DNA of 64,000 bases from Lachnospiraceae bacterium (GTDB lineage Bacteria; Bacillota; Clostridia; Lachnospirales; Lachnospiraceae), in contig JAEEYF010000089.1 in NCBI GenBank assembly GCA_016291655.1, positions 40,197-104,196 of the forward strand. Direction: 5' to 3'. The notes under the pieces are model-generated. The model was not told where the DNA came from. It ran no database searches and saw nothing but the letters and a program-made list of their open reading frames with translations. The position numbers and the translations under genes were made by a program. Position 1 is the stretch's first letter, and each line of letters opens with the position of its first letter. Below are positions 1-15,926 of the stretch, piece after piece.

Positions 1-1936
1 CGGAAACACCGGTAACGCAAGCGAACACTCCGAGAGGAACGTCTACATTAACCTTTTTCAGATTGTGCTCCGTCGCACCCTTGATCTTAAGCCAGCCTGT
101 AGGCTTGCGGCGCTTGGAAGGGATCTCGATCTTCTTTCTGCCTGAAAGGTAGTCGGCAGTGATAGAGTTGGGGCATTTCATGACTTCCTCGGGAGTTCCC
201 GCCGCAACGATCTCTCCTCCGAGATTGCCGGCTCCGGGGCCTATGTCCACAAGGAAATCAGCTTCACGCATAGTCTCCTCGTCATGCTCCACGACGATAA
301 GGCTGTTGCCGAGATCGCGAAGGCGCTTCAGGGAAGCCAGGAGCTTTCCGTTGTCACGCTGGTGAAGGCCTATACTGGGCTCATCCAGAATGTAGGCAAC
401 ACCCACAAGACCGGAGCCGATCTGGGTAGCGAGACGTATACGCTGGGCTTCACCTCCGGAAAGAGAGCCTGCCGAGCGGGCAAGGGTCAGGTAGTCAAGA
501 CCCACGTCGTTCAGGAAACGTATGCGCCCCTTGATCTCCTTGAGGATGGCAGCGCCAATGGTCTGCTGCATGGGTGTGAGCTCGAGGTTGTTGAAAAAGT
601 CCGCCAGATCCCTCAATGGAAGCTCGGTGACTTCGGATATATTTTTTCCTCCCACCGTTACAGCCAGAACTTCAGGCTTTAGACGCTTTCCGTTACATAC
701 GGCGCACGGGGTGGTGGTCATGAATTCTTCGTATTCGGCCTTGGAGTATTCCGAGGCGGTTTCACGGTATCTTCTTTCGGTACTCTTTATGAGACCCTCA
801 AAGACTATGGGATAGACACCCGATCCGCGCTGACCCGTGTAATGGACATCAACGGATTCGGTGGTTCCGTAGATGAGCATGTTTTGGATGTCTTCGGGGA
901 GCTCTTTGAAGGGAGTGTCAAGGGAGAAACCGAAATGCTTGGAGAGGGCGACAAGCAACGAACCCGAGAAGCTTTTCGGATCGCTTGAGGATTGCCAGCC
1001 CATAACCTGAATGGCGCCTTCCTTAAGGCTCAGGCTTCTGTCGGGTATCATGAGATCGGGAGAGAACTCCATCTTGACACCGATACCGTTACAATTGGGG
1101 CAGGCTCCGAAGGGATTGTTGAAGGAAAAAGCTCTGGGCTCCAGCTCGGGCAGATTTATGCCGCAGTCCGGGCAGGCAAAGCTTTGGGAGAAGAGCTTCT
1201 CTTCGCCGTTCATAAGGTCCACGACAAGAAGACCTTCGGACAGCTTAAGGGCTGTTTCGATGGAATCCGATAGTCTTTGATCGATGCCGGGCTTGGCTAT
1301 GAGCCTGTCCACAACAATCTCTATCAAATGCTTATTGTTCTTTTCAAGCTTGATCTCTTCGGACAGGTCGTAGATGTGACCGTCGATCCTTGCACGAACA
1401 AAGCCTGATTTCTTGGCACTTTCCAACACTTTTACATGTTCACCCTTACGACCTCTGACGACGGGAGCAAGGAGCTGAAATTTAGTGCCTTCCGGGAATT
1501 TCATTATCTCGTCCGCCATCTGATCCACAGACTGGCGCTTGATCTCGCGACCGCAATTGGGACAATGGGGGATTCCGACTCTTGCATAGAGCAAACGGAA
1601 GTAATCATATATCTCCGTGACCGTACCTACCGTTGAACGGGGGTTGCGGTTAGTGGATTTCTGGTCGATGGAAATGGCGGGGGACAGTCCCTCTATGCTT
1701 TCCACATTCGGTTTTTCCATCTGCCCCAGGAATTGTCTTGCATAGGAGGACAGGGATTCCATGTAACGTCTCTGACCTTCCGCATATATGGTATCAAAAG
1801 CAAGCGAACTCTTTCCCGAACCGGAAAGACCCGTGAGAACGACGAATTCATCTCTCGGGATGTCTATGTCTATGCCTTTCAGATTGTGCTCGTTTGCACC
1901 GCGTATCTTGATGTATTTCTTTGATTCTTCAAACAT
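1..1936 (-). CDS. uvrA: Excinuclease ABC subunit A (UvrA), 3' part; runs off the window start
   Basis: Reverse-strand translation from the ATG at 1936-1934 gives [70 protein letters not shown]...; at the window edge the reading frame covers the second Walker A region (LGVFxCVTGVSG). The start lies 11 nt after the uvrB stop, giving the usual uvrBA operon order. It is not in the ORF track because no stop occurs inside the window. Confidence 0.9.
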
Positions 1937-1946
1937 GTCTATTCCT

Positions 1947-3917
1947 TTAATCGTGTTTTTTCAGTTCAGCCAATTTGTCTCTGTACTCGGCGGCAAGCTC
2001 GAAATTGAGTTCCGCAGCCGCAGAGAGCATCTTGCGTTTTAAGCTTTCGGCAAGTGCTTTGAGCTCGTTGGATGACATGGATTCCAGATCCTTTTCGATA
2101 AGTTTGGAGCCGGGCTCGGTCTTTTTGGATATGCTTATGAGTTCGCGCACAGCCTTTTTGATCGATGTGGGGGTAATGCCGTGCTCTTTGTTGTAGGCAT
2201 CCTGAATTCCGCGTCTTCTTTCCGTCTCCGCGATGGCTTTTTCCATGGATTCGGTAATTGTGTCGGCATACATTATAACATGGCCGTCAACATTTCTCGC
2301 CGCACGCCCGACGGTCTGGATGAGAGAGGTCTCCGAACGGAGAAAGCCCTCTTTGTCGGCATCGAGGATCGCAACAAGTGAAACCTCGGGGATATCAAGG
2401 CCTTCGCGGAGAAGGTTGATGCCCACCAGCACATCAAAAACATCGAGACGCATGTCACGGATGATCTGAGAGCGCTCGAGGGTGTCAACGTCGGAGTGAA
2501 GGTAGCGCACGCGTATGCCCACTTCTTTGAGATATTCCGTAAGGCTTTCCGCCATCTTTTTGGTGAGAGTTGTCACAAGGACTTTTCCGCCGTTTTTCGT
2601 GGTCTTGTTTATCTCGCCGATCAGATCGTCGATCTGCCCCGTCGTCGGACGGACGAAGATCTCGGGATCAAGAAGGCCTGTGGGCCGGATGATCTGCTCT
2701 GCGCGTAGAAGCTCATGGGCTTCCTCATATTTTGAAGGAGTTGCGGAGACGAACAGCATCCGGCTGATGTGAGACTCAAACTCCTCAAAGTTCAGAGGGC
2801 GGTTGTCCTGAGCGGAGGGCAGACGGAAGCCGTAATCGATCAACGTAGCCTTTCGCGAACGGTTGCCGTTGTACATGCCTCCGATCTGGGGGATGGTCAT
2901 GTGGGACTCATCCACAATGATCAGAAAATCATCGGGGAAGAAGTCAAGCAGGGTATAGGGCGGATCTCCGGGATGCAGCCCCGAGAGGTGCATGGTGTAG
3001 TTTTCAATGCCGGAGCAGAAGCCTGTTTCATTGAGCATTTCAATATCATAGCTTGTTCGTTCGTATATCCTCTGGGCTTCGAGAAGCTTGCCCTTGTCCT
3101 TGAAATATTTGACCTGCTCGGTCATTTCTTCTTCGATATCATGGATCGCCTGATTCAAGCGGTCTTTGTCAACAACATAGTGGGAGGCGGGATATATGGC
3201 CGCATGAGCGAGGGTACACTTGGGATTTCCCGTCACCACCTCGAATTCCGTGATCCTGTCGATCTCATCACCGAAGAATTCGATGCGAAGGGCGGTATCT
3301 CCGTAGGCAGCGGGGTAGACCTCCACCACGTCTCCTCTGACTCTGAAGGTGCCTCGCTTAAAGTCCATGTCATTTCGGGCATATTGCATATCCACCAGTT
3401 TGCGGATTACTTCATCCCTGTCTTTGGTGGCGCCTTCACGCAGTATCAGCGACATGCCCTGATACTCCTCGGGGCTGCCTATGCCGTATATGCACGAAAC
3501 GGAAGCCACGATGATGACATCCTTTCGCTCCGAAAGCGCGTCTGTGGCAGAGTGACGCAGCTTGTCGATCTCGTCGTTTACCGCCGAATCCTTCTCAATA
3601 TATGTATCGCTGGAGGGAACATAAGCCTCCGGCTGATAGTAATCATAGTAGGACACAAAATATTCCACAGCATTCTCAGGGAAGAATTCCTTCATCTCCG
3701 AGTAAAGCTGTGCCGCAAGGGTCTTGTTGTGGGCAATGATCAGGGTGGGCTTTTGCACGGCTTCAATAACATTTGCCATGGTAAATGTTTTACCGGAGCC
3801 CGTCACGCCCAGCAGGGTTTCAAACTGATTACCGCTTTTGAAGCCCTCCACCAATTCTTTAATTGCCTGCGGCTGATCGCCCGTAGGTTTGTATTCCGAA
3901 TGAATTTTGAATTCCAT
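1947..3917 (-). CDS. uvrB: Excinuclease ABC subunit B (UvrB)
   Basis: 656-aa ORF with helicase motifs ([12 protein letters not shown]), a beta-hairpin region and a C-terminal UvrB/UvrC interaction coiled coil ([15 protein letters not shown]). Confidence 0.95.
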
Positions 3918-3977
3918 GGTTACCTCGATTCTTAATCTCTTATTATAACACAGATCCCATTTTTGGGGTAGTGTGAA

Positions 3978-4075
3978 CCTTGGGGACGGGGTTAGGGGTT
4001 CATCGCAGGTAAATTTTTGTCCTCTTTCCCCATGCGGGGAGGGGAAAATGACACCACAACCCCGTCCCCGGGGTT
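3978..4075. repeat. MITE/REP-like element, copy 1: terminal inverted repeats ccttggggacggggtta ... tgacaccacaaccccgtccccgggg about 100 bp apart
   Basis: Same GGGGACGGGGTT/AACCCCGTCCCC core as the copies at 15836, 43000, 54023 and 54281. Sits in the divergent uvrB/NUDIX intergenic region. Confidence 0.6.
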
Positions 4076-4152
4076 CATTTCCGAAATATTTGATTGACTT
4101 AGGTGAAGCGGAATAATAAACTTACAATAATAATAATACAACGGGAGGATTT

Positions 4153-5554
4153 TATGGAAATCTGGGATTTATATGACAATGAAGGAAACAAGACGGGAGA
4201 AACATGGGAAAGAACGTCCGGGAAGAACAATCGGATCCCGGAGGGCAGATACCATCTGGTGTGCGATATCCTGGTAAGGCATACTGACGGGACATTTCTT
4301 CTTACAAAACGCAGTTCGGACAAGGATGTGTATCCGGGACGCTGGGAAGCGAGCGCGGGCGGAAGTGCATTAAGCGGAGAAGAACCGCTGGATTGCGCAA
4401 AAAGGGAACTCTTGGAGGAAACGGGGATCAGTACCGATAGATTTTTCTTTATAGGTACATCCCGGAGAGAACAGAGCCACAGCATGTTATATTCGTATGT
4501 GGCGGAAACCGATTGCGATAAAAACTCCGTGAAGCTTCAGGAGGGTGAGACCGTAGATTACAAGTGGGTGACAAGGGAAGAACTTTTGGCGCATATCGGT
4601 TCCGATGATTCCATTCCCTCTCATGACGCGAGATACAAAAAATATTACGATAAGATTCTGTCGAATGAAGCGCTTGCTGCAAGACCTATTGCGCCGTGGT
4701 TTGCGGAAATGGATCCGGATGATTTCGTGTCGCCTTATCCGACCTATGAATGCGGAACTATATTGGACAGATTTACCAAGCGCGAGTTTACCGGAACAGA
4801 CGGCACAACGATCAAATACTACTGTTTTGAACCGAGTGAAGTAAAGGCGGGCTCGGATAAGAAATTCCCGCTGCTGGTGTTTTTCCACGGAAATAGTAAT
4901 TCCTTCGTGGGTGATCTTTGCGTGAATTACACAGGTGCGGAAAGATATGCATCCGATGAATACCAGAAGTCCATGGGCGGGGCATATATTCTGGTGCCTG
5001 TGGCCAATGAGTACAGGAACGAAAAGGGGCAGGTCGAGGGATGCTGGTCGCCTGAGTACGACACTGTTGTCAGGGAGTTGGTGAAAGGCTTTGTCGAAGA
5101 GAGCTCAGGGCATATATGCACTCGAGTTTTTCTGGGAAATTCCGCAGGGGGAAGATATGTCTTTCATGCCCTTGAATGTTTTCCGGAGGATATGGATGCG
5201 GTTGTTCCCGTGGGTTGCAGCGCGATCCCCGAGGATCGGATACTGGAAGCGTTTGATAAGGCGGGAAAACATCTGTTCTTTGCGATGGGAAAGAGAGACG
5301 AATTGAATGATTATGTTTTGGATGTAGTGCCTCGGCTGCCGAAACTCAACTCCCTCAAGAACTGCTTTATCTTCACACCCGATTGGGTGCGAAACGGTGA
5401 TAAGGGCATAGCATCCATAAACGGAGGCATAGAAATGGGACAGCACTGCCTTATGAACAGCATCCAGGCGAATCTCATGTTTGATGACGGTACGCCGATG
5501 GATGAGCGACTGCCACGGGGATTAACGGGGGGGATCGCTGAATTGGTAAAGTGA
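4153..5554 (+). CDS. Fusion protein: N-terminal NUDIX hydrolase domain plus C-terminal alpha/beta-hydrolase (esterase/lipase-like) domain
   Basis: Perfect Nudix box G-x5-E-x7-REUxEExGU in GGSALSGEEPLDCAKRELLEETGI. The C-terminal half carries a GxSxG nucleophile elbow (FLGNSAGG) and the HGNSNSF/VPVG organisation of an alpha/beta hydrolase. RBS GGGAGGA sits 6 nt before the ATG at 4153. The ORF-track start at 4103 has no RBS. Confidence 0.75.
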
Positions 5555-5732
5555 AAGATTCCATTAAAAAAAATAATAAGCATTGCATTGTAGAGTGAGG
5601 AAAAAAGTGTTAATATTCCTAATTGTTCTTAAAAGGCATAAAGCCCGTCGGGAACTAAAGGGCACAGGTGCTTGAAAAGGCCTTTACAAGGCGTTTTTTA
5701 ACCCAAACACCGGCTCGTCGAACGGAGGAAAC

Positions 5733-7286
5733 ATGACACAGGAAAAGATTTTGGTCCTTGACTTCGGAGGACAGTATAATCAGCTTGTTGCAAGGCGTGT
5801 ACGTGAATGCAATGTTTATTGCGAGATCGCATCCTACAAGACGCCCATTGAAAAGATCAAGGAAATGAAGCTTAAGGGCATAATCCTTACAGGCGGTCCA
5901 AACAGCTGCTACGAGGAAGGGGCACCAACCTATTCAAAGGAACTCTTTGAACTGGGCATTCCCGTGCTCGGACTTTGCTACGGCGCTCAGCTTATGAGCC
6001 ATGTATTGGGCGGCAAGGTTGAAAGGGCTGCTAACAGAGAATATGGCAAGACCAAAGTTTATGTGGATGGTGAAAAAGGCATAGGCGGACTGTTTGACGG
6101 CATTCCTTCCGAAACCGTGGTCTGGATGAGTCATTTTGATTATATATCAAAAATTGCTCCGGGTTTTGAGATCCTGGCACATACGGACAATTGTCCGGTT
6201 GCTGCGGCAGGAAACGGAGTTAAGAAATTATATGCAATACAGTTCCATCCTGAGGTGTTGCATACAGAAAAGGGAAAAGAGATCCTCTTTAATTTTGTGC
6301 GCAAGATCTGCGGATGTGCGGGCGAATGGAGAATGGATTCCTTCGTAGAGCATTCCATAAAGGAGATACGCGAAAAAGTCGGAGACGGTAAGGTTTTGCT
6401 GGCACTTTCGGGCGGCGTGGATTCGTCTGTTGCGGCAGGCTTACTTTCACGGGCTATCGGTAAGCAGCTTACATGCGTATTTGTGGATCACGGTCTTCTT
6501 CGCAAAAACGAGGGAGATGATGTGGAAGCGGTTTTTGGACCCATGGGAAATTTTGACCTCAATTTCGTACGTGTTAATGCTCAGCAAAGATACTATGGCA
6601 AGCTGGCAGGAGTTTCAGAACCCGAAAGAAAGCGTAAGATAATCGGGGAAGAATTCATACGTGTATTTGAGGAAGAGGCAAAGAAGATCGGCAGAGTGGA
6701 TTTCCTTGCTCAGGGAACCATTTATCCTGACGTTGTTGAATCAGGCCTCGGCGGAGAGTCTGCTGTCATAAAGTCCCATCACAATGTGGGCGGACTTCCG
6801 GATTATGTTGATTTTAAAGAAATCATTGAACCTCTTCGCAATCTGTTTAAGGATGAAGTCCGTAAAGCCGGACTTGAGCTCGGACTTCCCGAAAAACTTG
6901 TGTTCCGGCAGCCCTTCCCCGGTCCCGGACTTGGCGTTCGTATAGTGGGAGAGGTCACGGAAGAGAAAGTTCGCATTGTTCAGGAGGCAGACTTCATCTA
7001 TCGCGATGAGATTGCCAAAGCCGGACTTAAGAAATTGCCCGATCAGTATTTCGCAGCTCTTACAAACATGCGCTCCGTCGGCGTTATGGGTGATGAGAGA
7101 ACCTATGACTATGCAGTGGCACTTCGTGCGGTAAACACCATTGATTTCATGACCGCAGAGGCAGCGGAAATCCCCTTTGAAGTTCTTCAGAAGGTGATGA
7201 GCCGTATCATAAACGAGGTCCGCGGAGTAAACCGCGTATTCTACGACCTGACGAGCAAACCGCCGGGTACGATAGAGCTCGAGTGA
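5733..7286 (+). CDS. guaA: GMP synthase (glutamine-hydrolysing)
   Basis: N-terminal class-I glutamine amidotransferase (LGLCYGAQL), an ATP-pyrophosphatase P-loop SGGVDSSV, and the characteristic C-terminal dimerisation domain. Full-length at 517 aa. Confidence 0.95.
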
Positions 7287-7336
7287 CCTGAGTGACGACA
7301 AATTGTTGTTTTTTCTAAGGAATAAATTCTATTATT

Positions 7337-7760
7337 TCGATGCCCACCGCTTCAAAAATGGCGGGGGCATCGAAAATTTCAAATTTCAAAATCCCGATGC
7401 CCTGAATAGCATATTCCCCTGGCCTATGGCGTCGGAAATTCCCAAATTCAAAATCTCGATGCCCTGAATGACTGATTTCAAAAGTTTATGGCATCGATAA
7501 TCCCTAAATTCAAAATCCCGATGCCCAAAATAGCATATTCCCCTGGCCTATGGCGTCGGAAATTCCCAAATTCAAAATCTCGATGCCCTAAAGGCTTGAT
7601 TACAAGAAGATATGGCATCGGAAATTTCAAAATTAAAAATCCCGATGCCCTAAAGTCCTGATTTCAGTGACATGTGGCATCGGAAAATCCAGAATTCAAA
7701 GTCTCGATGCTCTGAGCCCTGTGAACTGAGGAAAAAGAGCATCGGGATTCTATAAATTCA
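7337..7760. repeat. Regular tandem array of six or seven 36-bp palindromic repeats (consensus GGCATCGGAAATTCCCAAATTCAAAATCCCGATGCC) separated by 26-bp spacers, period 62 bp; CRISPR-like but degenerate, with no cas genes
   Basis: Repeats start at 7366, 7428, 7490, 7553, 7614 and 7676, with a partial copy at 7738. Each is an 8-bp stem (GGCATCGG/CCGATGCC) around a 20-nt AT-rich loop. Spacers 1 and 3 are near-identical (a block duplication of 7406-7466 = 7533-7593). Repeats differ at 3-6 positions. The array lies between guaA and pgi. Confidence 0.7.
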
Positions 7761-7890
7761 ATTAAAGGAAAAAATTTCATTCTTTAGTAGCCACGCTATC
7801 TTTTTATGTGACCGATTCTTTACTTTTCGGATTTTTTCGAGTATACTTACCGACTGTGAAGATATTGATATCTCGGAAAGGAAGTAAACC

Positions 7891-9471
7891 ATGATTTCTT
7901 GGAAGAATTACAATGAACTTGTAACAGTAAAAAAACTTGAAAAGACAGCAAAGACCGATCTTCGTGAAGTGCTTGCGGGAAAAGAAGGTGCTGACAGAGT
8001 AGCAAAGTATGCGATACCCATGTCTGAGGGACTTTCCTACAATTATGCCGCGAAACAGGTTAATGACGAGACTATAGAGATTTTAAAAGAATTGGCCGAG
8101 GAAGCTCAGCTTGCGGATAAGTTTGAAGCCCTTTATAACGGCGAAGTGATCAATACCGGTGAAAAGAGAATGGTTCTCCACCATATGACCAGAGGCCGGC
8201 TCGGAAAGGCAGTACTTGACGGAGATACGGACAAGAGAGCCTTTTATGTTGAGCAGCAGAACAGGATCGCAGATTTCGCCAATGCGGTTCATGAAGGAAA
8301 GATCGTTAATGAAAAGGGAGAAAGATTTACAACAGCCGTACAGATAGGTATCGGCGGAAGTGATCTCGGCCCCAGAGCAATGTATCTTGCTCTTGAGAAT
8401 TGGGCAAAGAAAAACGGATGCTTCAAGATGGAAGCTAAGTTTATTTCCAATGTAGATCCCGACGATGCGGCAGGAGTACTGAACGGTATAGATGTAGAGC
8501 GTTCGATCTTTATACTTGTATCAAAGTCGGGAACAACACTTGAAACCCTTACAAATGAATCCTTTGTTAAGGATGCATTGAAGAATAAGGGACTTGATGC
8601 TTCAAAGCATATGATCGCAGTTACCAGCGAAACCTCACCTCTTGCAAAGAGCGCGGATTATCTGGCTGCTTTCTTTATGGATGATTTTATCGGCGGACGC
8701 TACTCATCCACTTCTGCTGTGGGCGGTGCGGTTCTCTCACTTGCCTTCGGACCCGAAATATTTGCACGCTTCCTTAACGGAGCAGCCGCAGAGGATAAGA
8801 ATGCTGCAAACAGAGATGTGATGAAGAATCCCGCTATGCTTGATGCATTGATCGGAGTATATGAAAGAAACGTACTTGGTTATCCTTCAACAGCTGTACT
8901 TCCGTACTCTCAGGCCATGAGCCGTTTCCCCGCTCATCTTCAGCAGCTGGACATGGAGTCAAACGGTAAGAGCGTAAACCGTTTCGGAGAGAAACTCGAT
9001 TATGTGACGGGACCTGTGATCTTCGGTGAACCCGGAACCAACGGACAGCATTCCTTCTACCAGCTCCTTCATCAGGGAACCAACGCTATACCTATGCAGT
9101 TTATTGCATTCAGGCATAATCAGGCTGAAACGGATGTAGTGATCCAGGGAAGCACGAGCCAGCAGAAACTGTGTGCAAACGTTGCAGCACAGATCATGGC
9201 TTTTGCATGCGGTAAAAAGAGCGAGGATCTTAACAAAAACTTTGAAGGAAATCGTCCTTCAAGCATAATCATAGGCGAGCAGCTTAATCCCGAGGCTCTC
9301 GGTACCATTCTTGCGCATTTTGAGAACAAGGTGATGTTCCAGGGTTTCATTTGGAACGTTAACAGCTTCGATCAGGAAGGTGTTCAGCTCGGAAAGGTGC
9401 TTGCAAAGAAAGTTTTGGCACATGAAACAGACGGAGCTCTCAAAGCCTACAGCGATCTTTTGAATATTTAA
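7891..9471 (+). CDS. pgi: Glucose-6-phosphate isomerase
   Basis: 526-aa PGI-family protein with SIS domains (IGIGGSDLGP, the sugar-isomerase signature FGEPGTNGQHSFYQL). Confidence 0.93.
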   Translation: MISWKNYNELVTVKKLEKTAKTDLREVLAGKEGADRVAKYAIPMSEGLSYNYAAKQVNDETIEILKELAEEAQLADKFEALYNGEVINTGEKRMVLHHMTRGRLGKAVLDGDTDKRAFYVEQQNRIADFANAVHEGKIVNEKGERFTTAVQIGIGGSDLGPRAMYLALENWAKKNGCFKMEAKFISNVDPDDAAGVLNGIDVERSIFILVSKSGTTLETLTNESFVKDALKNKGLDASKHMIAVTSETSPLAKSADYLAAFFMDDFIGGRYSSTSAVGGAVLSLAFGPEIFARFLNGAAAEDKNAANRDVMKNPAMLDALIGVYERNVLGYPSTAVLPYSQAMSRFPAHLQQLDMESNGKSVNRFGEKLDYVTGPVIFGEPGTNGQHSFYQLLHQGTNAIPMQFIAFRHNQAETDVVIQGSTSQQKLCANVAAQIMAFACGKKSEDLNKNFEGNRPSSIIIGEQLNPEALGTILAHFENKVMFQGFIWNVNSFDQEGVQLGKVLAKKVLAHETDGALKAYSDLLNI

Positions 9472-9529
9472 GCAAAGGCTTGATTTCAAGGGCTTCCTGT
9501 GTTATAAAGTATGTGTTTAACTGAATATA

Positions 9530-9825
9530 AAGCATGTTCGGTTCCGGAGAGATCCGGATCAGGGGGAAGTTCGGTGAAAATCCGTCGCAACCACCATTAC
9601 CGTGATCGGGCGTGAGCCCGTAAGTCGGAATACCTGCCGAACTTGTAAGGTTAACCGCTTTGACCTTTGTATCATCAAAGTGAGAGTGGACATTTTTGGG
9701 TAAGAAGAATGCAACCGTTTGTCGTTCCGGGACAGTGCCTTAACAGGCAGTGTCTTGGTTTAGTTTGCGTGCGAGAAACAGTTGCGTTTTGTTATCCTTA
9801 AGGAAAACAAAACGCTTTTTCTGTA
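9530..9825 (+). promoter_or_regulatory. Cobalamin (AdoCbl) riboswitch with expression-platform terminator
   Basis: GGTGAAAATCC motif plus a B12 box AAGTCGGAATACCTGCC (consensus rAGYCMGgAgaCCkGCc). A terminator hairpin gcgttttgtt...aacaaaacgc followed by TTTTTCT lies at about 9783-9822. B12-uptake genes follow directly. Confidence 0.75.
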
Positions 9826-9839
9826 TTTAAGGATGGGTT

Positions 9840-10139
9840 ATGGGAAAGTACACAAGGGAGATGAGTATTCAGCTGCTCATCGATAAAAAGAAAAGTATTG
9901 AGGAAGCGGGCGAAGACCGATTGCCAAAGAGATCCGATTTTGACAGTGAGGAAGTCTGTGCCATCAAAGCTTTTCTGGGACCGTGGCCGAGGGCGCTGGA
10001 AACCGCGGGACTGAAGGAAGTCAGAAACGACGACCGAAAACGCCTTAACTCCGAAAAAAGGATAAGGGCAAAAAGACGAAGGACCGAAGCGAAAAAGGGA
10101 CGAGTCAAGGCTGAAAATACTAAATCTAAAGGAGACTGA
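9840..10139 (+). CDS. Small basic hypothetical protein (99 aa), first ORF after the B12 riboswitch
   Basis: RBS AAGGATGGG before the ATG; a highly charged K/R/E-rich C-terminus; no recognisable domain. Whether it is a real gene is uncertain. Confidence 0.35.
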   Translation: MGKYTREMSIQLLIDKKKSIEEAGEDRLPKRSDFDSEEVCAIKAFLGPWPRALETAGLKEVRNDDRKRLNSEKRIRAKRRRTEAKKGRVKAENTKSKGD

Positions 10140-10143
10140 TACT

Positions 10144-10977
10144 ATGAAAAAGTTTTTCGCAACATTGCTTGCCGCATTTCTTGTGATCGCGGCTGTAAAT
10201 CCTGTTACCGTTAAGGCGGGCGGACTTTTGATCTCCCCCAGGCCTGCGGATGTGACGGTTTATGTTACTGTTTGCGACGGAGACGTAAAGCTTGCTCAGA
10301 CAGCGGTTAAAGTGGCGGATATAGATGAGGACGGAGCACTTACGATCAATGATGCTCTTTACCTTGCTCATGAAGCTGAATTCAAGGGCGGCGCTGCTGC
10401 AGGCTACGGTTCGGCAAACAGCACCTGGGGTCTTTCCCTTACCAAACTCTGGGGCGTGGAAAACGGCGGAAGCTATGGCTATTACGTAAACAATGTGTCT
10501 GCTATGGGTCTTGCGGATCCCATTAAGGACGGAGATTACATCAATGCTTTTGTTTACACCGACACCGTAGGTTTTTCCGACATGTATACTTTCTTTGATG
10601 TAAATACGGTTGAAGATTACAACGGTAAGGAAGTAACACTTACACTTTCAGGCGCAGGCTATGATGCAAACTGGAATCCCGTTACTGTACAGGTTGCGGA
10701 TGCAACTGTCACTGTGGACGGAAAGAAATCAACTTTTAAGACAGATGCAAACGGAAAGGTTACTATTAAGGTGGACAAAAAAGGAAGCCATGTGATCAGT
10801 GCGGTTTCCGAGAAAAATACAATTGTTCCTCCGGTCTGTGTTATCTCTGCTCCCGTAAAGGTTAATCCTCCTCTTACGGCAGATACCGCACACACAGCTG
10901 CAGTCGTATTATTGCTTGTGGCACTTGGCGGTGTTGGCATTTGTGTATTCTGCGGAAAGAAAGTTAATGAAAGATAA
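10144..10977 (+). CDS. Surface-anchored DUF4430 (transcobalamin beta-domain-like) protein, putative cobalamin-binding
   Basis: Signal peptide MKKFFATLLAAFLVIAAVNPVTVKA, a DUF4430-like core (SYGYYVNNVSAMGLADPIKDGDYINAFVY) and a C-terminal TM anchor. RBS AAAGGAG. Under the B12 riboswitch. Confidence 0.65.
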   Translation: MKKFFATLLAAFLVIAAVNPVTVKAGGLLISPRPADVTVYVTVCDGDVKLAQTAVKVADIDEDGALTINDALYLAHEAEFKGGAAAGYGSANSTWGLSLTKLWGVENGGSYGYYVNNVSAMGLADPIKDGDYINAFVYTDTVGFSDMYTFFDVNTVEDYNGKEVTLTLSGAGYDANWNPVTVQVADATVTVDGKKSTFKTDANGKVTIKVDKKGSHVISAVSEKNTIVPPVCVISAPVKVNPPLTADTAHTAAVVLLLVALGGVGICVFCGKKVNER

Positions 10978-12667
10978 GCTAAAAAAATTCATAGGCGGTT
11001 TGATCGCGGCATTGATCTTTGTGTCAGCGATCCCGCCTTTTTATGCTGAAGCGGCTGCCGTCGGTGAACTGAATGAGGTCATCGACGGTATTGTTGCTTA
11101 TGAAGAAAAAACAGAAGACTGTTTTGATGCCGTGGAATGGATAAAGGCATTGGAAGCCACAGCGGGAAGCGGCTCCGAGTGGTTTGTGATCGGGGCTTCG
11201 GCTGCAGGAATAGAGGCTGACTACGAAAGCTATGCCTGTAAGCTGGTTGAATATGCGGAGAACAACAGTATCCCGAGCGCAACCGCAAAGCAGAGGATAG
11301 CTATCGCTATGATGGCCTGCGGTGAAAAGGACAATGAATTTATAAGGAGTACGGCTGAGGAAGAGAGCGACAAGCTCGGGATCATGAGCCGGGTTTTCGG
11401 ACTTCATCTGCTTAACAATGATGTTGCCGCAAACAAGGTTACAAAGGAGGAGCTGACAGAGCAGATCCTCGGTTTAAGGAAATCCGACGGCGGATGGGCC
11501 ATTATGGGAACGGTATCGGATGTGGATGTTACCGCCATGGCGATCCAGGCTCTGGCGCCTCTTGTGAAGGAAAACAAAGAGGTTGAAGAAGCGGTTGACC
11601 GTGCGTTGGGGATACTGTCGGAAAAACAGCTCGATAACGGCGGATATGCAGGCTTCGGGAATGAGAACCCGGAGAGCGCGGCTCAGGTGGTGATCGCACT
11701 CACTTCCTTAGGTATCGATCCGCTTACGGATGAACGATTTATTAAAAACGAAAACACAGTCCTTGACGGATTTTTGAGATACAGAAGAGAGGACGGAAGC
11801 TTTGCTCACGTCATAGACGGAGAGGCAAATGTTTCCGCGACCTATCAGGCGCTTTTGGCCTTGGCTTCAATTAAAAAGATGAGGGAAGGCAGAGGGGGAC
11901 TGTACGATCTGAGTGAAGCTCGGTTTGTGAAGTCCGAGGAACAGGGAACTACGGAAGAGGTCAAGCCCACGGCAACCGAAGCTCCGACACCCACGGCTGT
12001 TCCGACTGTAACGGTCGAAACACCCGCGGAGAGTGAAGATACGTCGAAAGCAGCAGATATCGATATTAAAACGGTTGTCATTACGGGGACGATCCTTTTG
12101 GGGATCGTGGCAGCTCTGGTGCTTTTCATTACAGGGCACAGAAACCGGAAAAACTATATCTTTGTGGGAGGCATATGCCTGCTAATCTGTGTTGCTGCCC
12201 TCTTTACAAGGTTCAGCACCCGTGAAGCCTATTATTCCGGTTCGGGGACCGGTAAAGAAGCGCCCATAGGAACCGTGACCCTGACCATAAGGTGCGACAC
12301 GGTAAAGAATGAGGCGGACAGAAGGTACATACCCGAGGATGGGGTCATCCTGCCTGTCACGACCTATGAGATAGAAGAGGGCGACACGGTGTATGATATA
12401 CTCGTGGAAGCCGTAAAGGAACATAATATACAGATGGAAAACAGAGGCTCCGCCACAGGTGCTCACGGAATGGTCTACATTGCGGGGATCGCCTATCTCT
12501 ATGAGCAGCAGTTCGGAGAATTGTCCGGCTGGATATATCATGTGAACGGAGTTGCCCCGTCCTACGGCTGCGGAGATTGTGTGCTAAAGGACGGAGATGT
12601 GGTGGAGTGGCTGTACACAAGGGATCTTGGCAGGGATCTCGGTGAGAACTTCGATGACTGGGAGTGA
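10967..12667 (+). CDS. Transcobalamin/intrinsic-factor-like surface protein: alpha/alpha-toroid (prenyltransferase/squalene-cyclase-like repeats) plus two TMs plus a C-terminal DUF4430 domain
   Basis: Start re-picked at the ATG overlapping the upstream stop (signal peptide MKDKLKKFIGGLIAALIFVSAIPPFYAEAAA). Repeats of the QxxxGGW type (SDGGWAIMG, LDNGGYAGFG, REDGSFAHV). Two TM helices. C-terminal DUF4430 (GWIYHVNGVAPSYGCGDCVLKDGDVVEWLY). Confidence 0.65.
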   Translation: MKDKLKKFIGGLIAALIFVSAIPPFYAEAAAVGELNEVIDGIVAYEEKTEDCFDAVEWIKALEATAGSGSEWFVIGASAAGIEADYESYACKLVEYAENNSIPSATAKQRIAIAMMACGEKDNEFIRSTAEEESDKLGIMSRVFGLHLLNNDVAANKVTKEELTEQILGLRKSDGGWAIMGTVSDVDVTAMAIQALAPLVKENKEVEEAVDRALGILSEKQLDNGGYAGFGNENPESAAQVVIALTSLGIDPLTDERFIKNENTVLDGFLRYRREDGSFAHVIDGEANVSATYQALLALASIKKMREGRGGLYDLSEARFVKSEEQGTTEEVKPTATEAPTPTAVPTVTVETPAESEDTSKAADIDIKTVVITGTILLGIVAALVLFITGHRNRKNYIFVGGICLLICVAALFTRFSTREAYYSGSGTGKEAPIGTVTLTIRCDTVKNEADRRYIPEDGVILPVTTYEIEEGDTVYDILVEAVKEHNIQMENRGSATGAHGMVYIAGIAYLYEQQFGELSGWIYHVNGVAPSYGCGDCVLKDGDVVEWLYTRDLGRDLGENFDDWE

Positions 12668-12673
12668 TGAACG

Positions 12674-13552
12674 GTGACGGCATATTCGGAATACAATCCA
12701 ATAGTGATCTTCCTGTATTTCATAATGGTTGCGGGACCGGTAATGTTCATCATGAATCCGGTCCTTCCGGCAAGCTCTCTTTTTGGTGCGGTCATATGTT
12801 TCGCGCTACGGGAGCGGAGGGAAAAAGACCGTTCTATAGCCGCCTTCGTGCTCCTTTTTCTGTTGTTGGCTCTTTTGAATCCCTTGTTCCATCATAACGG
12901 TGTAACGGTGCTGTTTTTGATAAATGACAATCCTATCACGCTGGAGGCGCTGTTTTACGGACTTACTTCTTCAACCATGGTGATAGCCGTGATCTTTTGG
13001 TTCAGAAGCTTTTCGAGACTGATGACCGGAGACAGGCTGCTTTATGTATTCGGAAAGGCTTCCCCCAAATTTGCGCTGATGTTGTCAATGGCACTGAGGT
13101 ATATTCCCTTGTTTGCAGAGCAGGCAAGGAAGATAAAGACGGCCAGACGGGCAATGGGGGCATATGAGGAGGAGAATCTCTGGGACACGGTAAGAGGCAG
13201 CGTGAAGGTTTTTGTGTCTCTTGCGGGTTGGAGTCTTGAAAACGGCATAATCACCGCCGACAGCATGGAAGCCAGAGGGTACGGCTCGGGGAAGAGGACG
13301 TTTTTTTCCAGATATGTATTCGGGAAAAAGGATTGGTTAGCACTATTGATCATTGCGGTTTCAAGCGGGGGAGTGATCGCCGGAAAGATCTTCGGTTGTC
13401 TGGACTTTGAGTTCTATCCGAAGGCTGAGGGAGATCTGTTTTCAAAAGGAGCCCTCTTGTCATATGCCTGCTACTTTGTTTTGACGATCCTGCCTTTGAT
13501 CGATAGGATCGCGGAAAGGGAAAAATGGAAATATTTAGAGTCGAAGATCTGA
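12674..13552 (+). CDS. ecfT: ECF transporter transmembrane component (EcfT/CbiQ family)
   Basis: GTG start after RBS GGGAG. Polytopic membrane protein with the EcfT signature region (ARRAMGAY, coupling helices). In an operon with the ECF ATPase. Confidence 0.8.
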   Translation: MTAYSEYNPIVIFLYFIMVAGPVMFIMNPVLPASSLFGAVICFALRERREKDRSIAAFVLLFLLLALLNPLFHHNGVTVLFLINDNPITLEALFYGLTSSTMVIAVIFWFRSFSRLMTGDRLLYVFGKASPKFALMLSMALRYIPLFAEQARKIKTARRAMGAYEEENLWDTVRGSVKVFVSLAGWSLENGIITADSMEARGYGSGKRTFFSRYVFGKKDWLALLIIAVSSGGVIAGKIFGCLDFEFYPKAEGDLFSKGALLSYACYFVLTILPLIDRIAEREKWKYLESKI

Positions 13553-15165
13553 ATTTTACATATGCCTTGGGGAACAAGCCGGCATTGAAGCAGGTGAGTT
13601 TTAAGGTTTCACGCGGTGATCTTGTCACCGTCTGCGGAGCTACGGGATCGGGGAAATCCACTCTTTTAAGGCTTCTTAAAAAGGAGCTCTCGCCCGTGGG
13701 AAAGAAAGAGGGAAGGATACTCTTCAAAGGAAAGGATCTCGATTCCATGTCCGTGAGGGAGAGTGCTTCCGCAATCGGTTTTGTGATGCAGAAGCCGGAG
13801 CAGCAGATTGTGACCGACAAGGTGTGGCACGAGCTGGCTTTCGGTCTTGAAAATCTGGGCGTGGACAACGCTTCCGTAAGAAGGCGCGTGTCGGAGATGG
13901 CAAGCTATTTCGGCATAGAAAGCTGGTTTGAAAAAAGCGTTACGGAACTTTCGGGAGGACAGAAACAGCTTCTTAATCTGGCGGCTGTAATGGTGATGCA
14001 ACCCGAGGTGCTTCTGTTGGATGAGCCCACAGCTCAGTTGGATCCCATAGCGGCAGCGGATTTTATGGCTACGGTGGCAAAGCTGAACAGGGAATTGGCC
14101 CTGACGGTGATAATTACCGAACACAGACTGGAGAATGTGATCTCCGTTTCGGACAAGCTCATGGCATTGGACAAGGGAGAAGTGAGGGCTTACGGAAAAA
14201 CCGGGGAAACGGTAGCGGAACTGACAGGTGAAAAGACCTTGCTGGAGGGTATGCCTGCAGCGGTAAGACTTTATGCGGGATTAAAAAACGCGGGAGTTCC
14301 CATGAAAGGGGAGTGTCCTTTGGATGTGTGCGAAGGACGCCGCTTTATAGAAAGCAATTTTCCGAATCATATAGATACATTGAGCTTGAAAAAGAGAAAA
14401 AGAAGTGACGAAACGGTCCTGAAGTTTACGAATGTATTTTTCAGGTACGAAAAAAATATGCCTGATGCGGTCGGAAACATGAACTTCGAGGTGCACAGAG
14501 GCGAGATCTTCTGTCTCCTCGGAGGAAACGGTTCGGGAAAATCCACCACCCTTTCTCTGGCAGCGGGAGTAAGGAAAGCCTATGCGGGAGAGATCAGGAT
14601 ATTCGGCAAAAGGCTCAAGGATTACAAGGCAGGATCTCTTTACAAGGGCTGCGTATCCATGCTTCCACAGGATGTTCAGACGTTGTTCATAGCGGATACG
14701 GTGAAAGAGGAACTGGAGGAAGTAAGATTCAGACCGGAGCTCCTGCCCTTCGATCTTTCACAACTTTCAGAGCGTCATCCCTATGACCTTTCGGGCGGTG
14801 AACAGCAATTGCTCGGACTTGCGAAGGTGATGGCATCGGATCCCAAACTGCTGCTTCTGGATGAGCCCACAAAAGGGCTGGATGCATATGCAAAAAAGGA
14901 AATAGCGGGAGTTTTGAGGAAACTCAGAGACCGTGGGGTGACCATAGTGTTTGTTACCCATGATGTGGAGTTTGCAGCTGCGCTGGCAGACAGATGCGCT
15001 CTTGTATTCAGGGGAGAAGTGACATCGGAAGGAGAGACCGCCGGCTTCTTTTCGGAAAATAGCTTTTACACTACGGCCGCGAATCGCATGACCAGAGGCT
15101 ACTATAACGGCATCCTGCGGGTTCGCGAGGCTGAGGAGATCATTAAATTAAATGTTTGTCATTAA
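13525..15165 (+). CDS. ecfA: ECF transporter ATPase, fused EcfA-EcfA' (two ABC domains)
   Basis: Two Walker A motifs (GATGSGKST, GGNGSGKST), two ABC signatures (LSGGQKQ, LSGGEQQ) and two Walker B motifs (LLLDEP). 546 aa. Confidence 0.9.
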   Translation: MEIFRVEDLNFTYALGNKPALKQVSFKVSRGDLVTVCGATGSGKSTLLRLLKKELSPVGKKEGRILFKGKDLDSMSVRESASAIGFVMQKPEQQIVTDKVWHELAFGLENLGVDNASVRRRVSEMASYFGIESWFEKSVTELSGGQKQLLNLAAVMVMQPEVLLLDEPTAQLDPIAAADFMATVAKLNRELALTVIITEHRLENVISVSDKLMALDKGEVRAYGKTGETVAELTGEKTLLEGMPAAVRLYAGLKNAGVPMKGECPLDVCEGRRFIESNFPNHIDTLSLKKRKRSDETVLKFTNVFFRYEKNMPDAVGNMNFEVHRGEIFCLLGGNGSGKSTTLSLAAGVRKAYAGEIRIFGKRLKDYKAGSLYKGCVSMLPQDVQTLFIADTVKEELEEVRFRPELLPFDLSQLSERHPYDLSGGEQQLLGLAKVMASDPKLLLLDEPTKGLDAYAKKEIAGVLRKLRDRGVTIVFVTHDVEFAAALADRCALVFRGEVTSEGETAGFFSENSFYTTAANRMTRGYYNGILRVREAEEIIKLNVCH

Positions 15166-15838
15166 GGATCGGACAATAAGAAATATTATCAGATTTGCTG
15201 TTCCGTTTTTGCTGATACCTGCGGCGGTGGCTGTTGGAGTGTTTGTATTCGACGACAAGTCATATGCCTTTGTGTCCCTGGCGGTTGCGGGGCTTTCGGT
15301 GCTGCTCTTTACTGCCGGATTCGAACGCAGGCGCACGGGAACAGGGCGCATGGCTGTGGTCGCCGTGATCGTGGCACTGACCGTGGTGGGGCGTTTCATC
15401 CCCTACTTTAAGCCGGTGGCGGCGCTGACAGTGATCGCAGGCATATATCTTGGCAGCGAAGCGGGCTTTCTCGTGGGGGCCTTGGCAGCGGTGATCTCCA
15501 ACTTCTACTTCGGTCAGGGACCCTGGACACCCTTCCAGATGCTGGCATGGGGTATGATAGGCCTGATCGCGGGCTTTTTGGGCGAGATTTTAAAACGCAG
15601 CCGTGTTTCGCTTGCCGTATACGGTGTTTTTTCGGGTGTTTTCTTTTCTCTTGTGATGGATGTTTGGACCGTTCTCTGGTATAATAAAACATTTGACGGA
15701 AGCATGTATCTCGCGGCATTGGTCACCGCTGCGCCTTACACGGTCCTCTATGCGGTTTCCAACATATTTTTCCTGATGGTGCTGAAAAAGCCTTTCGGAG
15801 AAAAACTTGAACGCATATGCATAAAGTACAGATTATGA
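15152..15838 (+). CDS. ECF transporter substrate-specific (S) component, probably cobalamin-specific (CbrT-like)
   Basis: 228-aa six-TM protein immediately after ecfAA'. Context: B12 riboswitch plus DUF4430 proteins. The CbrT assignment rests on context only. Confidence 0.6.
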   Translation: MFVIKDRTIRNIIRFAVPFLLIPAAVAVGVFVFDDKSYAFVSLAVAGLSVLLFTAGFERRRTGTGRMAVVAVIVALTVVGRFIPYFKPVAALTVIAGIYLGSEAGFLVGALAAVISNFYFGQGPWTPFQMLAWGMIGLIAGFLGEILKRSRVSLAVYGVFSGVFFSLVMDVWTVLWYNKTFDGSMYLAALVTAAPYTVLYAVSNIFFLMVLKKPFGEKLERICIKYRL

Positions 15839-15905
15839 CACCACAACCCCGTCCCCGGGTGTCAAATGAACCCCGGTGAACCCCGGGGACGGGGTTGTGG
15901 TGTCA
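15836..15905. repeat. REP/MITE-family palindrome, copy 2 (tgacaccacaaccccgtccccggg ... ccccggggacggggttgtggtgtca); probably also acts as a terminator of the ECF operon
   Basis: Perfect 24-bp arms with a 21-nt loop containing a tandem tgaaccccgg repeat, followed by TTTTT. Confidence 0.7.
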
Positions 15906-15926
15906 TTTTTACGGAGGTATGTTTAT

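What the first reader, a model, noticed from the sequence alone, without database searches (positions are those of the whole stretch)
7337..7760. Regular 62-bp-period array of palindromic repeats between guaA and pgi (CRISPR-like but atypical)
There are six or seven copies of a 36-bp repeat, each an 8-bp stem (GGCATCGG/CCGATGCC) around a 20-nt AT-rich loop, spaced by 26-bp spacers of constant length. Repeats diverge at 3-6 positions. Some stem changes keep G-U pairing, compatible with an RNA-level hairpin. The repeat-spacer-repeat-spacer block 7406-7466 is duplicated exactly at 7533-7593. No cas genes occur in 64 kb. Candidates: a decaying orphan CRISPR, a tandem REP/BIME-like element, or an array of small hairpin RNAs/terminators insulating guaA from pgi.
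Basis: seen in the sequence. Interest (0 to 1): 0.55.

Follow-up and report, generated by a model that had tools for sequence, protein, structure and literature searches.

The report
Orphan hairpin array of nuclease module
The 62-bp-period palindromic array is real but is not a CRISPR: it is a gene-less copy of a repeat array that in related rumen Lachnospiraceae sits directly upstream of an uncharacterised nuclease gene, usually next to guaA. The guaA-array-pgi arrangement in this window is probably an assembly join across two copies of that array.

Summary
The array exists as described: six full 62-bp units at 7366-7737 plus half units at both ends. Its "spacers" are related to one another (48% vs 26% random identity) and recur in other strains, so it is a tandem repeat, not a CRISPR. 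In about 50 of 70 related loci, a tandem array lies directly upstream of a conserved 277-aa protein with a PD-(D/E)xK nuclease domain. That protein has no Pfam or NCBIfam match. The arrays have a 62-nt period (rarely 73). Their inverted arms covary, and their A-rich, G-poor linkers always have the gene's polarity. guaA is the commonest upstream neighbour. The window has no nuclease gene, so its array is an orphan. The window is also an exact splice: 1-7430 equals guaA-array-nuclease contigs and 7352-19471 equals an HSP20-array-pgi contig, with a 79-nt overlap inside the array. Sister species have HSP20-pgi and no array. "Between guaA and pgi" is therefore probably an assembly chimera. My preferred mechanism, held with low confidence, is that the transcribed hairpin array binds or restrains the nuclease, as in type III toxin-antitoxin systems. 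The main rival is a DNA-level array of protein-binding sites at the end of a guaA-targeting island. No description of the module was found in the papers searched.

The parts
7263..7299 (+). Last ~24 nt of guaA plus GAGTGACCTGAGTGACGAC. This is an att-like core. Imperfect copies of the guaA 3' end (GGAAACATCGAG(A/C)TGGAGTGA) recur at the far end of the small island in L010, and directly in front of the leader in L002, L003 and L005.
   Evidence: guaA identity
7300..7337 (+). Conserved leader shared by all window-type arrays (L001-L005, L016). It holds a weak promoter-like pair, TTGTTT (7306-7311), 18 nt, TATTAT (7330-7335), which would start transcription inside hairpin 1.
   Evidence: promoter-like only; such hits are not enriched family-wide
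7338..7372 (+). Hairpin 1: CGATGCCC-a-CCGC / GCGG-g-GGCATCG, 12 bp with one bulge. It is homologous to the strong GC hairpin with a T-rich tail that precedes the array in guaA-linked loci (L007, L034, L040, L043, L047). Its 3' arm doubles as the left arm of unit 1.
   Evidence: (I6)
7366..7737 (+). Six full 62-nt units starting at 7366, 7428, 7490, 7552, 7614 and 7676. Each is R-arm GGC(A/G)TCG(G/A), a 20-nt A-rich G-free linker, Y-arm (C/T)CGATGC(C/T), then a 26-nt variable gap.
7352..7430 (.). 79-nt stretch identical in both parental contig types. To its left the window equals the guaA-array A-nuclease contigs (L001/L114). To its right it equals the HSP20-array B-pgi contig (L002). It is the probable assembly or recombination junction.
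7737..7769 (+). Terminal half unit (R-arm GAGCATCGGG, 7737-7746) plus ATTCTATAAATTCAATTAAAGGA. This is the remnant of the 5' UTR and Shine-Dalgarno region of the missing nuclease gene. In L001, L004 and L016 it continues AGGCAATTACCATGAAAAAC...
7770..7890 (+). Native pgi upstream region with pgi's own promoter-like site, TTTACT-17-TATACT (7819-7847). It is conserved in the array-less sister species L121.

Best explanation
Identity (high confidence). The array is a gene-less copy of the cis component of a two-part module found in rumen Lachnospiraceae. The module reads, in order:
- the 3' end of a co-oriented housekeeping gene, most often guaA;
- a GC hairpin;
- 2-11 tandem units of 62 nt (rarely 72-73), each with 7-9-bp covarying inverted arms, a 20-23-nt A-rich G-poor linker and a 21-28-nt variable gap;
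- the gene for a ~277-aa protein with an N-terminal helix/beta-hairpin/helix coiled coil and a C-terminal PD-(D/E)xK (Vsr/EDxHD-like) nuclease domain.
The module sits at the guaA-proximal end of small variable islands. In at least one case (L010) the island is bounded by imperfect direct repeats of the guaA 3' end.

In the window the nuclease gene is absent. Most of the array (7352-7770) is the secondary, orphan copy that naturally lies between HSP20 and pgi. It is spliced, probably by the assembler, to the first unit of the guaA-linked copy.

Mechanism (inferred, low confidence). The array is transcribed on the gene strand and folds into tandem hairpins separated by single-stranded A-rich linkers. 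The nuclease oligomer binds these units, and possibly cleaves in the linkers. That keeps the nuclease sequestered or its translation repressed, because the last unit abuts the ribosome-binding site. [quoted passage not shown] Without the nuclease, the window's copy is a relic. At most it could neutralise an incoming nuclease.
For: Module association.
- A period-55-80 tandem array lies within 500 nt upstream of the gene in 45 of 80 metagenomic loci (about 50 of 70 with enough upstream DNA).
- Many 'array-less' loci still show diverged units at lag 61-64.
- 172 kb of unrelated viral control loci hold none.
- Repeat sequences differ widely between lineages, but the period stays 61-63 in the great majority.
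- The arms covary: 87.4% of cells are paired vs 71% in shuffles, 9 of 10 pairs show changes on both sides, 0 of 500 shuffles reach the observed score, and the core 7 bp are about 100% paired.

Polarity and the RNA reading.
- All arrays have the gene's polarity. They are A-rich on the gene strand (A 0.345, T 0.200).
- The linker is G-poor (G 0.08, C 0.20, A 0.49).
- G.U exceeds A.C in core arm pairs, 48 vs 23 (p = 0.004), and in 19 arrays against 3.
- The linker is slightly less structured than shuffled versions.
- The last unit runs into the Shine-Dalgarno sequence.

Orphan status.
- The window has no homolog of the gene.
- L003 keeps only the first 6 codons, an independent deletion.
- L002 and the second array in L015 are also orphans.

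Protein.
- No Pfam, NCBIfam or PDB sequence hit. 595 homologs were found.
- AF2 model pLDDT 85.9.
- Foldseek matches DrdV, Bax1, R2-RLE and MunI.
- The nuclease domain matches the C-terminus of the PADLOC defence candidate PDC-S68 at E = 1e-25.

Context.
- Downstream genes are unrelated between loci (49 clusters in 65 loci) and include type II TA and Fic/zeta-like genes.

Splice.
-.

Design parallel.
- Type III loci are defined by tandem nucleotide repeats upstream of a toxin gene, and their authors expected further families (PMC3401426).
Against: - There is no terminator between array and gene, which the published type III criteria require. The terminator-like hairpin lies upstream of the array, so read-through from guaA would be limited.
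- Sigma-70-like promoters are not enriched upstream of arrays: 18 of 33 loci vs 43% background. In L079 a good promoter lies between the array and the gene.
- Relatives of the nuclease domain are DNA enzymes or helicase-nuclease fusions.
- The period classes of 62 and 73 differ by about one DNA helical turn.
- The gaps show no significant nested structure (z = -0.27).
- The G.U excess could partly reflect leading-strand C-to-T mutation bias.
- A 29%-identical homolog has no array.
- There are no expression data of any kind.
Confidence: 0.4

Rival explanations
1. DNA-level element. The units are phased double-stranded binding sites for the nuclease oligomer at the guaA-proximal end of a guaA-3'-end-targeting integrative or homing island. 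They would work like the arm-type sites of attP or the multiple transposase sites in Tn7 or Mu ends, or as an operator or sequestration array. The nuclease would be the mobility enzyme, a free-standing homing-endonuclease-like protein. The window's array would be what is left of such an element end.
For:
- The array lies between an att-like copy of the guaA 3' end and the first gene of the island, where integrase genes and arm sites normally lie.
- L010 shows a second guaA-3'-like copy about 2 kb downstream. L002 shows the order right end-att-left end, as expected of a circular junction.
- The region after the guaA stop is hypervariable between strains with identical guaA.
- The guaA 3' end is a known ICE target, with direct repeats made of the gene's exact 3' end (PMC4701971).
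- Periods of 62-63 and 72-73 bp correspond to about 6 and 7 helical turns.
- A terminator-like hairpin precedes the array, and promoters are inconsistent.
Against: - The centre of the 36-bp pseudo-palindrome is strongly strand-asymmetric (A-rich, G-poor) and always in the gene's polarity. A symmetric dimer site does not require this.
- G.U exceeds A.C on the gene strand.
- Arrays occur at one end only, or on both sides of the gene in direct rather than inverted orientation.
- No guaA-tail repeat was found within 4 kb downstream in 23 other loci.
- The predicted N-terminal domain is a coiled coil with a beta-hairpin, not a recognisable DNA-binding fold.
Confidence: 0.3
2. REP/RAYT-like relationship. 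The array cassette (guaA tail, leader, array) is a non-autonomous repeat that is copied to new intergenic sites. It is mobilised or maintained by the neighbouring nuclease, as REPINs are by RAYT transposases.
For: - Orphan copies carrying 20-28 nt of the guaA tail sit in unrelated intergenic sites: HSP20-pgi in L002 and after an aminotransferase gene in L003.
- Ten loci have a second array of the same polarity within 4 kb. Four of these start right after the gene's stop codon, so the gene is flanked by arrays.
- The alternating inverted arms with two linker classes recall BIME-2 architecture (my own knowledge).
Against: - No genome-wide dispersal is seen in the data held: one array in the 64-kb window, and one locus per MAG in the species-representative scan.
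- The protein is not an HUH/Y1 transposase.
- The orphan copies are equally well explained as islands whose genes were deleted.
Confidence: 0.12
3. The array has no dedicated function. It is a tandem duplication of a terminator-like hairpin, maintained by unequal crossing-over. At most it acts as an mRNA 3'-end stabiliser or as a barrier to antisense transcription, since on the - strand each hairpin is followed by a T-rich tract.
For: - The array arms resemble the arms of the preceding hairpin 1.
- Unit number and order vary between strains, as expected for unequal crossing-over.
- On the - strand the units have the form hairpin plus U-rich tail (sequence reading).
Against: - A 62-nt period, arm pairing kept by compensatory change, and a conserved linker composition across lineages whose repeat sequences are otherwise unalignable all indicate selection on the unit.
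- The tight, polar linkage to one protein family argues for a shared function.
- The scan found no terminator-like sites on either strand, and the loops are 20-26 nt.
Confidence: 0.1
4. Degenerate orphan CRISPR array.
For: It has 36-nt partly palindromic repeats and constant-length interspersed sequences.
Against: - The spacers are 25-26 nt and mutually homologous (0.48 identity), and are reused between positions and strains.
- In other lineages the whole 62-nt units are 85-97% identical.
- There are no matches to phages, plasmids or viral contigs beyond chance.
- The conserved neighbour is a PD-(D/E)xK nuclease, not cas.
- No Rfam CRISPR-DR hit was found.
Confidence: 0.02

Closest known systems
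Type III toxin-antitoxin loci (toxIN, cptIN, tenpIN; Blower et al. 2012, PMC3401426)
   Same: A tandem array of short nucleotide repeats (2-11 copies) lies directly upstream of, and co-oriented with, a nuclease gene. The modules are small and sit in variable, defence-like regions. Orphan or partial loci occur. cptIN was itself described in Lachnospiraceae relatives.
   Different: The units are 62 nt rather than 34-45 nt, and are simple hairpins with A-rich linkers rather than known pseudoknots. The protein has a PD-(D/E)xK fold plus a coiled coil, not the ToxN/AbiQ endoribonuclease fold. The terminator-like hairpin lies before the array, not between array and gene. No consistent promoter is seen. 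Toxicity and antitoxicity are untested.
REP/BIME elements with RAYT genes
   Same: Intergenic clusters of inverted arms alternate with two classes of linker and lie just after stop codons. A nuclease-type gene is flanked by its cognate repeats. Repeat and gene appear to co-diversify.
   Different: There is no genome-wide dispersal in the data held. The protein is not an HUH transposase. The 62-nt period is strict and the polarity matches the gene.
Site-specific integrative islands/ICEs at the 3' end of guaA (PMC4701971), with arm-type sites next to the integrase gene
   Same: The location is immediately after the guaA stop. Imperfect direct repeats of the guaA 3' end flank the L010 element. 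Cargo is variable. An attP-like junction is present in L002.
   Different: No tyrosine or serine recombinase is present. The end-proximal gene is a PD-(D/E)xK nuclease. The repeats are 62-bp tandem units rather than short arm sites.
EDxHD / Vsr-like homing endonucleases (I-Bth0305I, PMC3239194)
   Different: There is no intron or intein context and no sequence-level similarity. The motif is WEHRG..DD rather than EDxHD. Homing is untested.
CRISPR arrays
   Same: Regular repeat/non-repeat alternation, and a repeat length of about 36 nt with terminal complementarity.
   Different: The interspersed segments are paralogous to one another. There are no cas genes next to any of more than 50 arrays and no protospacer matches. 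Variation looks like unequal crossing-over.

Membership tests
CRISPR array | Spacers are unique sequences unrelated to each other | tested here: not met
   Mean pairwise spacer identity is 0.48 against 0.26 random. There is a 61-nt exact duplicate. The same 2-3 archetypes recur across strains. Whole units are 85-97% identical in other lineages.
CRISPR array | cas genes adjacent, or at least present, and crRNA-type repeat family | tested here: not met
   In more than 50 related loci the adjacent conserved gene is a PD-(D/E)xK nuclease without Cas family hits. There is no Rfam hit. cas genes elsewhere in the source genome could not be checked.
CRISPR array | Spacers match mobile elements | tested here: not met
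   No match in 50,697 phage records. One chance-level hit to the leader was found in plasmids. Viral contigs gave only single chance matches to the repeat.
Type III toxin-antitoxin | Tandem array of nucleotide repeats upstream of and co-oriented with the toxin gene | tested here: met
   45 of 80 loci by TRF, plus diverged arrays in others. In the window itself the gene is missing.
Type III toxin-antitoxin | Palindromic terminator between repeats and toxin gene (criterion in PMC3401426) | tested here: not met
   No terminator-like site was found. The last unit abuts the RBS, and the GC hairpin with a T tail lies upstream of the array.
Type III toxin-antitoxin | Promoter at the start of the repeat array | tested here: inconclusive
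   TTGTTT-18-TATTAT lies in the window-type leader, with a similar site in L007. Family-wide, however, hits occur in 18 of 33 loci against 43% background.
Type III toxin-antitoxin | Toxin of the ToxN/CptN/TenpN (AbiQ-like endoribonuclease) families | tested here: not met
   The fold is PD-(D/E)xK plus a coiled coil. There are no Pfam, NCBIfam or PADLOC toxN-type hits.
Type III toxin-antitoxin | Protein is toxic and repeat RNA neutralises it; toxin processes the repeat RNA | not testable with these tools
   This needs expression and biochemical assays.
REP/BIME with RAYT | Many dispersed copies per genome | tested here: not met
   One array in 64 kb. There was one locus in each of three MAGs in the species-representative scan. 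Only local extra copies lie within 4 kb of the gene. No complete genome was available.
REP/BIME with RAYT | Associated gene is an IS200/IS605-like HUH (Y1) transposase | tested here: not met
   No Pfam hit was found, and the predicted fold is PD-(D/E)xK.
Intrinsic terminator array | GC-rich stem with short loop followed by a T tract on the transcribed strand | tested here: not met
   0 terminator-like sites in 7000-8100 on either strand. Loops are 20-26 nt, and the + strand hairpins are followed by A-rich linkers.
Integrative island at guaA 3' end | Direct repeats of the target gene's 3' end flanking the element | tested here: inconclusive
   Present in L010 (about 21 nt, imperfect) and as an attP-like junction in L002. 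Not found within 4 kb in 23 other loci.
Integrative island at guaA 3' end | Site-specific tyrosine/serine recombinase encoded at the element end | tested here: not met
   The end-proximal gene is the nuclease. The neighbours in L010 are a 115-aa protein without hits and a DUF4417 protein.

The most novel reading that the evidence does not exclude
The 62-nt hairpin array plus coiled-coil PD-(D/E)xK nuclease would be a previously undescribed two-component system. The family has more than 500 members, so far seen in rumen and gut Lachnospiraceae. One possibility is a fourth, structurally unrelated family of RNA-antitoxin (type III-like) abortive-infection modules whose toxin is a DNA nuclease. 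The other is a new kind of recombinase-less mobile island that targets the guaA 3' end with a homing-type nuclease and uses the phased repeat array as its end-recognition or control element. The orphan arrays, such as the one in this window, would be its footprints.
Probability: 0.35. Interest if true: 0.8.

Novelty: new variant of a known kind. Interest (0 to 1): 0.6.

Why it matters
Taken alone, the window's array is a relic, and its genomic context is probably an assembly artefact. That is a useful warning: such arrays break or mis-join metagenomic contigs, and they can be miscalled as CRISPRs.

The family behind it is more interesting. A protein family with no Pfam, NCBIfam or PDB-sequence match is rigidly coupled to a repeat array. 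The array's period, arm pairing and linker composition are conserved while its sequence is not. That pattern marks a specific protein-nucleic acid partnership.

If the partner is RNA, type III toxin-antitoxin logic would extend to a new toxin fold and to DNA nucleases. If the partner is DNA, it would be an integrase-free way of occupying the guaA 3' end. Either reading can be tested directly with a two-plasmid toxicity/rescue assay and with binding assays.

Tried and rejected
- Rfam at permissive thresholds over the array gave only chance miRNA-like hits.
- The CRISPR reading was rejected on spacer homology, neighbours and the lack of protospacers.
- My first G.U vs A.C test, with long automatically called arms, was noisy (147 vs 108; arrays 14 vs 13). 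I replaced it with a core-arm test.
- A promoter scan upstream of arrays showed no enrichment over coding background.
- Nested structure inside the variable gaps was not significant against shuffled gaps.
- A search for guaA-tail repeats (attR) downstream of the gene found none within 4 kb in 23 loci.
- The protein family is absent from viral contigs. In phage records only three weak hits on short unannotated faecal contigs were found, and the best of these has no array.
- Profile and single-sequence searches against PDB sequences returned nothing meaningful.
- The N-terminal domain was modelled alone from a single sequence (pLDDT 72). It gave only a helix/beta-hairpin/helix fold and was not searched further.
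- The AFDB Foldseek library was unavailable.
- Literature searches found no description of the module. One possibly relevant 2026 preprint on mining non-coding elements could not be opened.
- My early idea that the downstream gene was an integrase was wrong.

Full report
1. THE OBSERVATION

- Tandem Repeats Finder reports one array, 7366-7715, with period 62, 5.6 copies and 72% matches (82% at period 124).
- The repeat finder places seven in-register copies exactly 62 nt apart.
- Each unit has four parts: an R-arm GGC(A/G)TCG(G/A), a 20-nt A/T-rich stretch, a Y-arm (C/T)CGATGC(C/T), and 26 further nucleotides.
- A lone Y-arm (7338-7345) precedes the first unit. With the first R-arm it forms a 12-bp hairpin. 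A lone R-arm (7737-7746) follows the last unit.
- The arm pattern is absent from 100 shuffles of the window and from the rest of the 64 kb.
- The flanking genes are guaA and pgi.

Two details need correcting.
- The exact duplicate is 61 nt at 7405-7465 and 7529-7589.
- The "spacers" resemble each other: 0.48 mean identity against 0.26 for random pairs.

No Rfam family matches the array.

2. THE CONTEXT IS PROBABLY AN ASSEMBLY SPLICE

Looking up the exact guaA and pgi proteins gave contigs from two rumen metagenome assemblies.
- Window 1-7430 is 100% identical to L001 and L114. These continue as guaA-leader-array-gene.
- L114 ends at window position 7439 and carries that other array's bases at 7431 and 7435.
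- Window 7352-19471 is 100% identical to L002, whose upstream genes are an ABC transporter, a histidine kinase, a response regulator, an MCP and HSP20, not guaA.
- The two identities overlap in 79 nt inside the array.
- Two sister species (pgi 90-91% identical) have the same HSP20-pgi synteny, with a plain terminator, the pgi promoter and no array.

So there are two natural copies. Array A lies after guaA and is followed by a gene. Array B is an orphan inserted between HSP20 and pgi. The window's guaA-array-pgi order is supported only by the window itself. I put about 70% on an assembler join through the shared 79-mer and the rest on a genuine recombinant.

3. WHAT THE ARRAY BELONGS TO

The gene after array A encodes a 277-aa protein (P0001) with no Pfam, NCBIfam or PDB sequence match. 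It has 595 homologs, all named hits being Lachnospiraceae MAGs.

I collected 80 metagenomic loci with a profile of the family.
- 45 of the 80 loci have a tandem array of period 55-80 within 500 nt upstream of the gene. The period is 61-63 in the great majority, 72-73 in a few, 75 once and 96 once. Arrays hold 2-10.7 copies.
- Many loci that TRF missed still show diverged units at lag 61-64, or recognisable arms.
- 172 kb of unrelated control loci hold no such array.

The repeat sequences are unalignable between lineages, but the unit plan is constant. Each unit reads:
- a Y-arm;
- a 21-28-nt G-richer gap;
- an R-arm;
- a 20-23-nt A-rich, G-poor linker that often starts AAAT and ends AAATC.

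Aligned arms show homologous positions that change in a compensatory way: GCATCG, CAGCGG, GCATCA, GGCAAC, GCAATG and CCACG, each with its complement.
- 87.4% of cells are paired against 71% in shuffles.
- 9 of 10 pairs have changes on both sides.
- 0 of 500 shuffles reach the observed score.
- Slid controls give 31-50% paired.

All arrays share the gene's polarity.

The commonest upstream neighbour is guaA or a guaA C-terminal paralog, in 34 of 83 loci. Others are thrS, leuA, serS and prfC/trx. Downstream genes are unrelated from locus to locus. The conserved module is therefore array plus gene. The window has no homolog of the gene.

The module has lost its gene independently more than once.
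- L003 keeps only the first six codons.
- L002 and the window keep only part of the Shine-Dalgarno region.

4. THE PROTEIN

The AF2 model (pLDDT 85.9) has two parts: an N-terminal helix/beta-hairpin/helix coiled coil and a C-terminal alpha/beta domain.
- Foldseek returns PD-(D/E)xK nucleases: DrdV, Bax1, R2 RLE and MunI.
- The domain is homologous to the C-terminus of the PADLOC defence candidate PDC-S68 (E = 1e-25) and to helicase-nuclease proteins on plasmids.
- Invariant residues E174, D205 (in PDF) and E220-H-R222 fit a PD-(D/E)xK-type site.

5. LOCUS BIOLOGY

The sequence right after the guaA stop differs completely between strains with identical guaA. A 91%-identical relative has no array. 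This is expected of an integration hotspot. The guaA 3' end is a documented ICE target, with direct repeats made of the gene's 3' end (PMC4701971).

In L010 the order is array, nuclease gene, a 115-aa gene, a DUF4417 gene, a 136-nt segment, and then a guaA-tail-like copy (GGAAACATCGAGCTGGAGTGA). In L002 the same 136 nt and the guaA tail lie directly in front of the leader and array B. That is the order expected of a circular or tandem junction. The module therefore sits at the guaA-proximal end of small mobile islands that lack a recognisable recombinase.

Ten loci carry a second array of the same polarity within 4 kb. Four of these start just after the gene's stop codon.

Among close strains, the first and last units are fixed and the middle ones are duplicated or shuffled. 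That is the pattern of unequal crossing-over.

6. MECHANISM

What is shown: a specific, polar, co-evolving partnership between the array and the nuclease family.

What is inferred: its nature, RNA or DNA.

For RNA on the gene strand:
- constant polarity;
- strong A over T and G depletion in the linker;
- G.U exceeding A.C in core arm pairs, 48 vs 23 (p = 0.004), and in 19 arrays against 3;
- a linker slightly less structured than shuffles;
- the last unit abutting the ribosome-binding site;
- persistence of orphan arrays;
- the design parallel with type III toxin-antitoxin loci (PMC3401426).

Against RNA, or for a DNA-level site array:
- the relatives of the nuclease domain act on DNA;
- a terminator-like hairpin precedes the array rather than following it;
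- promoters are inconsistent;
- the period classes differ by about one helical turn;
- the array lies beside an att-like site;
- a 29%-identical homolog has no array.

I commit, at about 0.4, to the RNA-sequestration or autoregulation model. I give about 0.3 to phased DNA binding sites of an island end. Smaller shares go to a REP/RAYT-like relationship, to neutral tandem duplication, and to CRISPR (about 0.02).

7. NOVELTY

No Rfam, Pfam or NCBIfam model matches the module, and the full-text searches found no paper describing it. It fails defining features of CRISPR, of the three type III TA families, of REP/RAYT and of recombinase-based guaA islands, while resembling each in part.

The window's copy is a relic, hence a moderate score. 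The family it points to deserves experimental follow-up.

Noticed in passing
window 17549-17664 (-), 9522-9655 (+), 49650-49887 (+): Rfam gathering-threshold hits: an FMN riboswitch, a cobalamin riboswitch just downstream of pgi, and 6S RNA.
   Followed up: no
window 17978-18084; 52944-53038; 45686-45760; 41549-41631: Other tandem repeats in the window: 36 nt x 3.0 (91% matches), 18 nt x 5.3, 33 nt x 2 and 15/30 nt x 5. They are probably within coding regions. None has the hairpin-arm plan.
   Followed up: no
L018, L034, L038, L040, L043, L071, L078 (upstream of the module); L015 3875-4831: A 317-aa paralog of only the C-terminal (ATP-pyrophosphatase plus dimerisation) half of guaA, about 52% identical to guaA residues 202-518. 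It is the immediate upstream neighbour of the array in many loci. In L015 it lies about 2.5 kb downstream of the nuclease gene. Its role and its link to the module are unexplained.
   Followed up: partly
L116 vs L117, positions 6548-6800: Two Pseudobutyrivibrio records encode the identical guaA protein, but their DNA diverges completely from the first base after the stop codon, with different terminators and different genes. So the guaA 3' end is a strain-level recombination or integration boundary even without the module.
   Followed up: partly
L005 2375-2775: A ~400-bp insertion lies between the guaA stop and the leader. It is bounded by near-identical 9-mers, GACCTGAGT and GACATGAGT, and looks like a small insertion with a target-site duplication or an att-type crossover.
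   Followed up: no
L015 2965-3165: A second, orphan 63-nt-period array (arms GGCATCGG/TCCGATG, different linker) lies about 1.7 kb downstream of the nuclease gene. It sits in front of an MGMT-type DNA_binding_1 gene and the guaA C-terminal paralog.
   Followed up: partly
L047 456-1301; window 7303-7467 and 7488-7661: Long spurious ORFs run through the arrays, for example a 281-aa ORF with a 62-aa periodicity in L047. Some database guaA entries are 590-707 aa long (P0121, P0122, P0126, P0134), possibly from gene calls extended across such arrays.
   Followed up: no
L001 (contig end), L114 (contig end at window 7439), L011-L013, L015 (contig starts inside arrays): Several metagenomic contigs begin or end inside these arrays or in the nuclease gene. 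The locus seems to be a recurrent assembly breakpoint, presumably because of strain heterogeneity and multiple array copies.
   Followed up: partly
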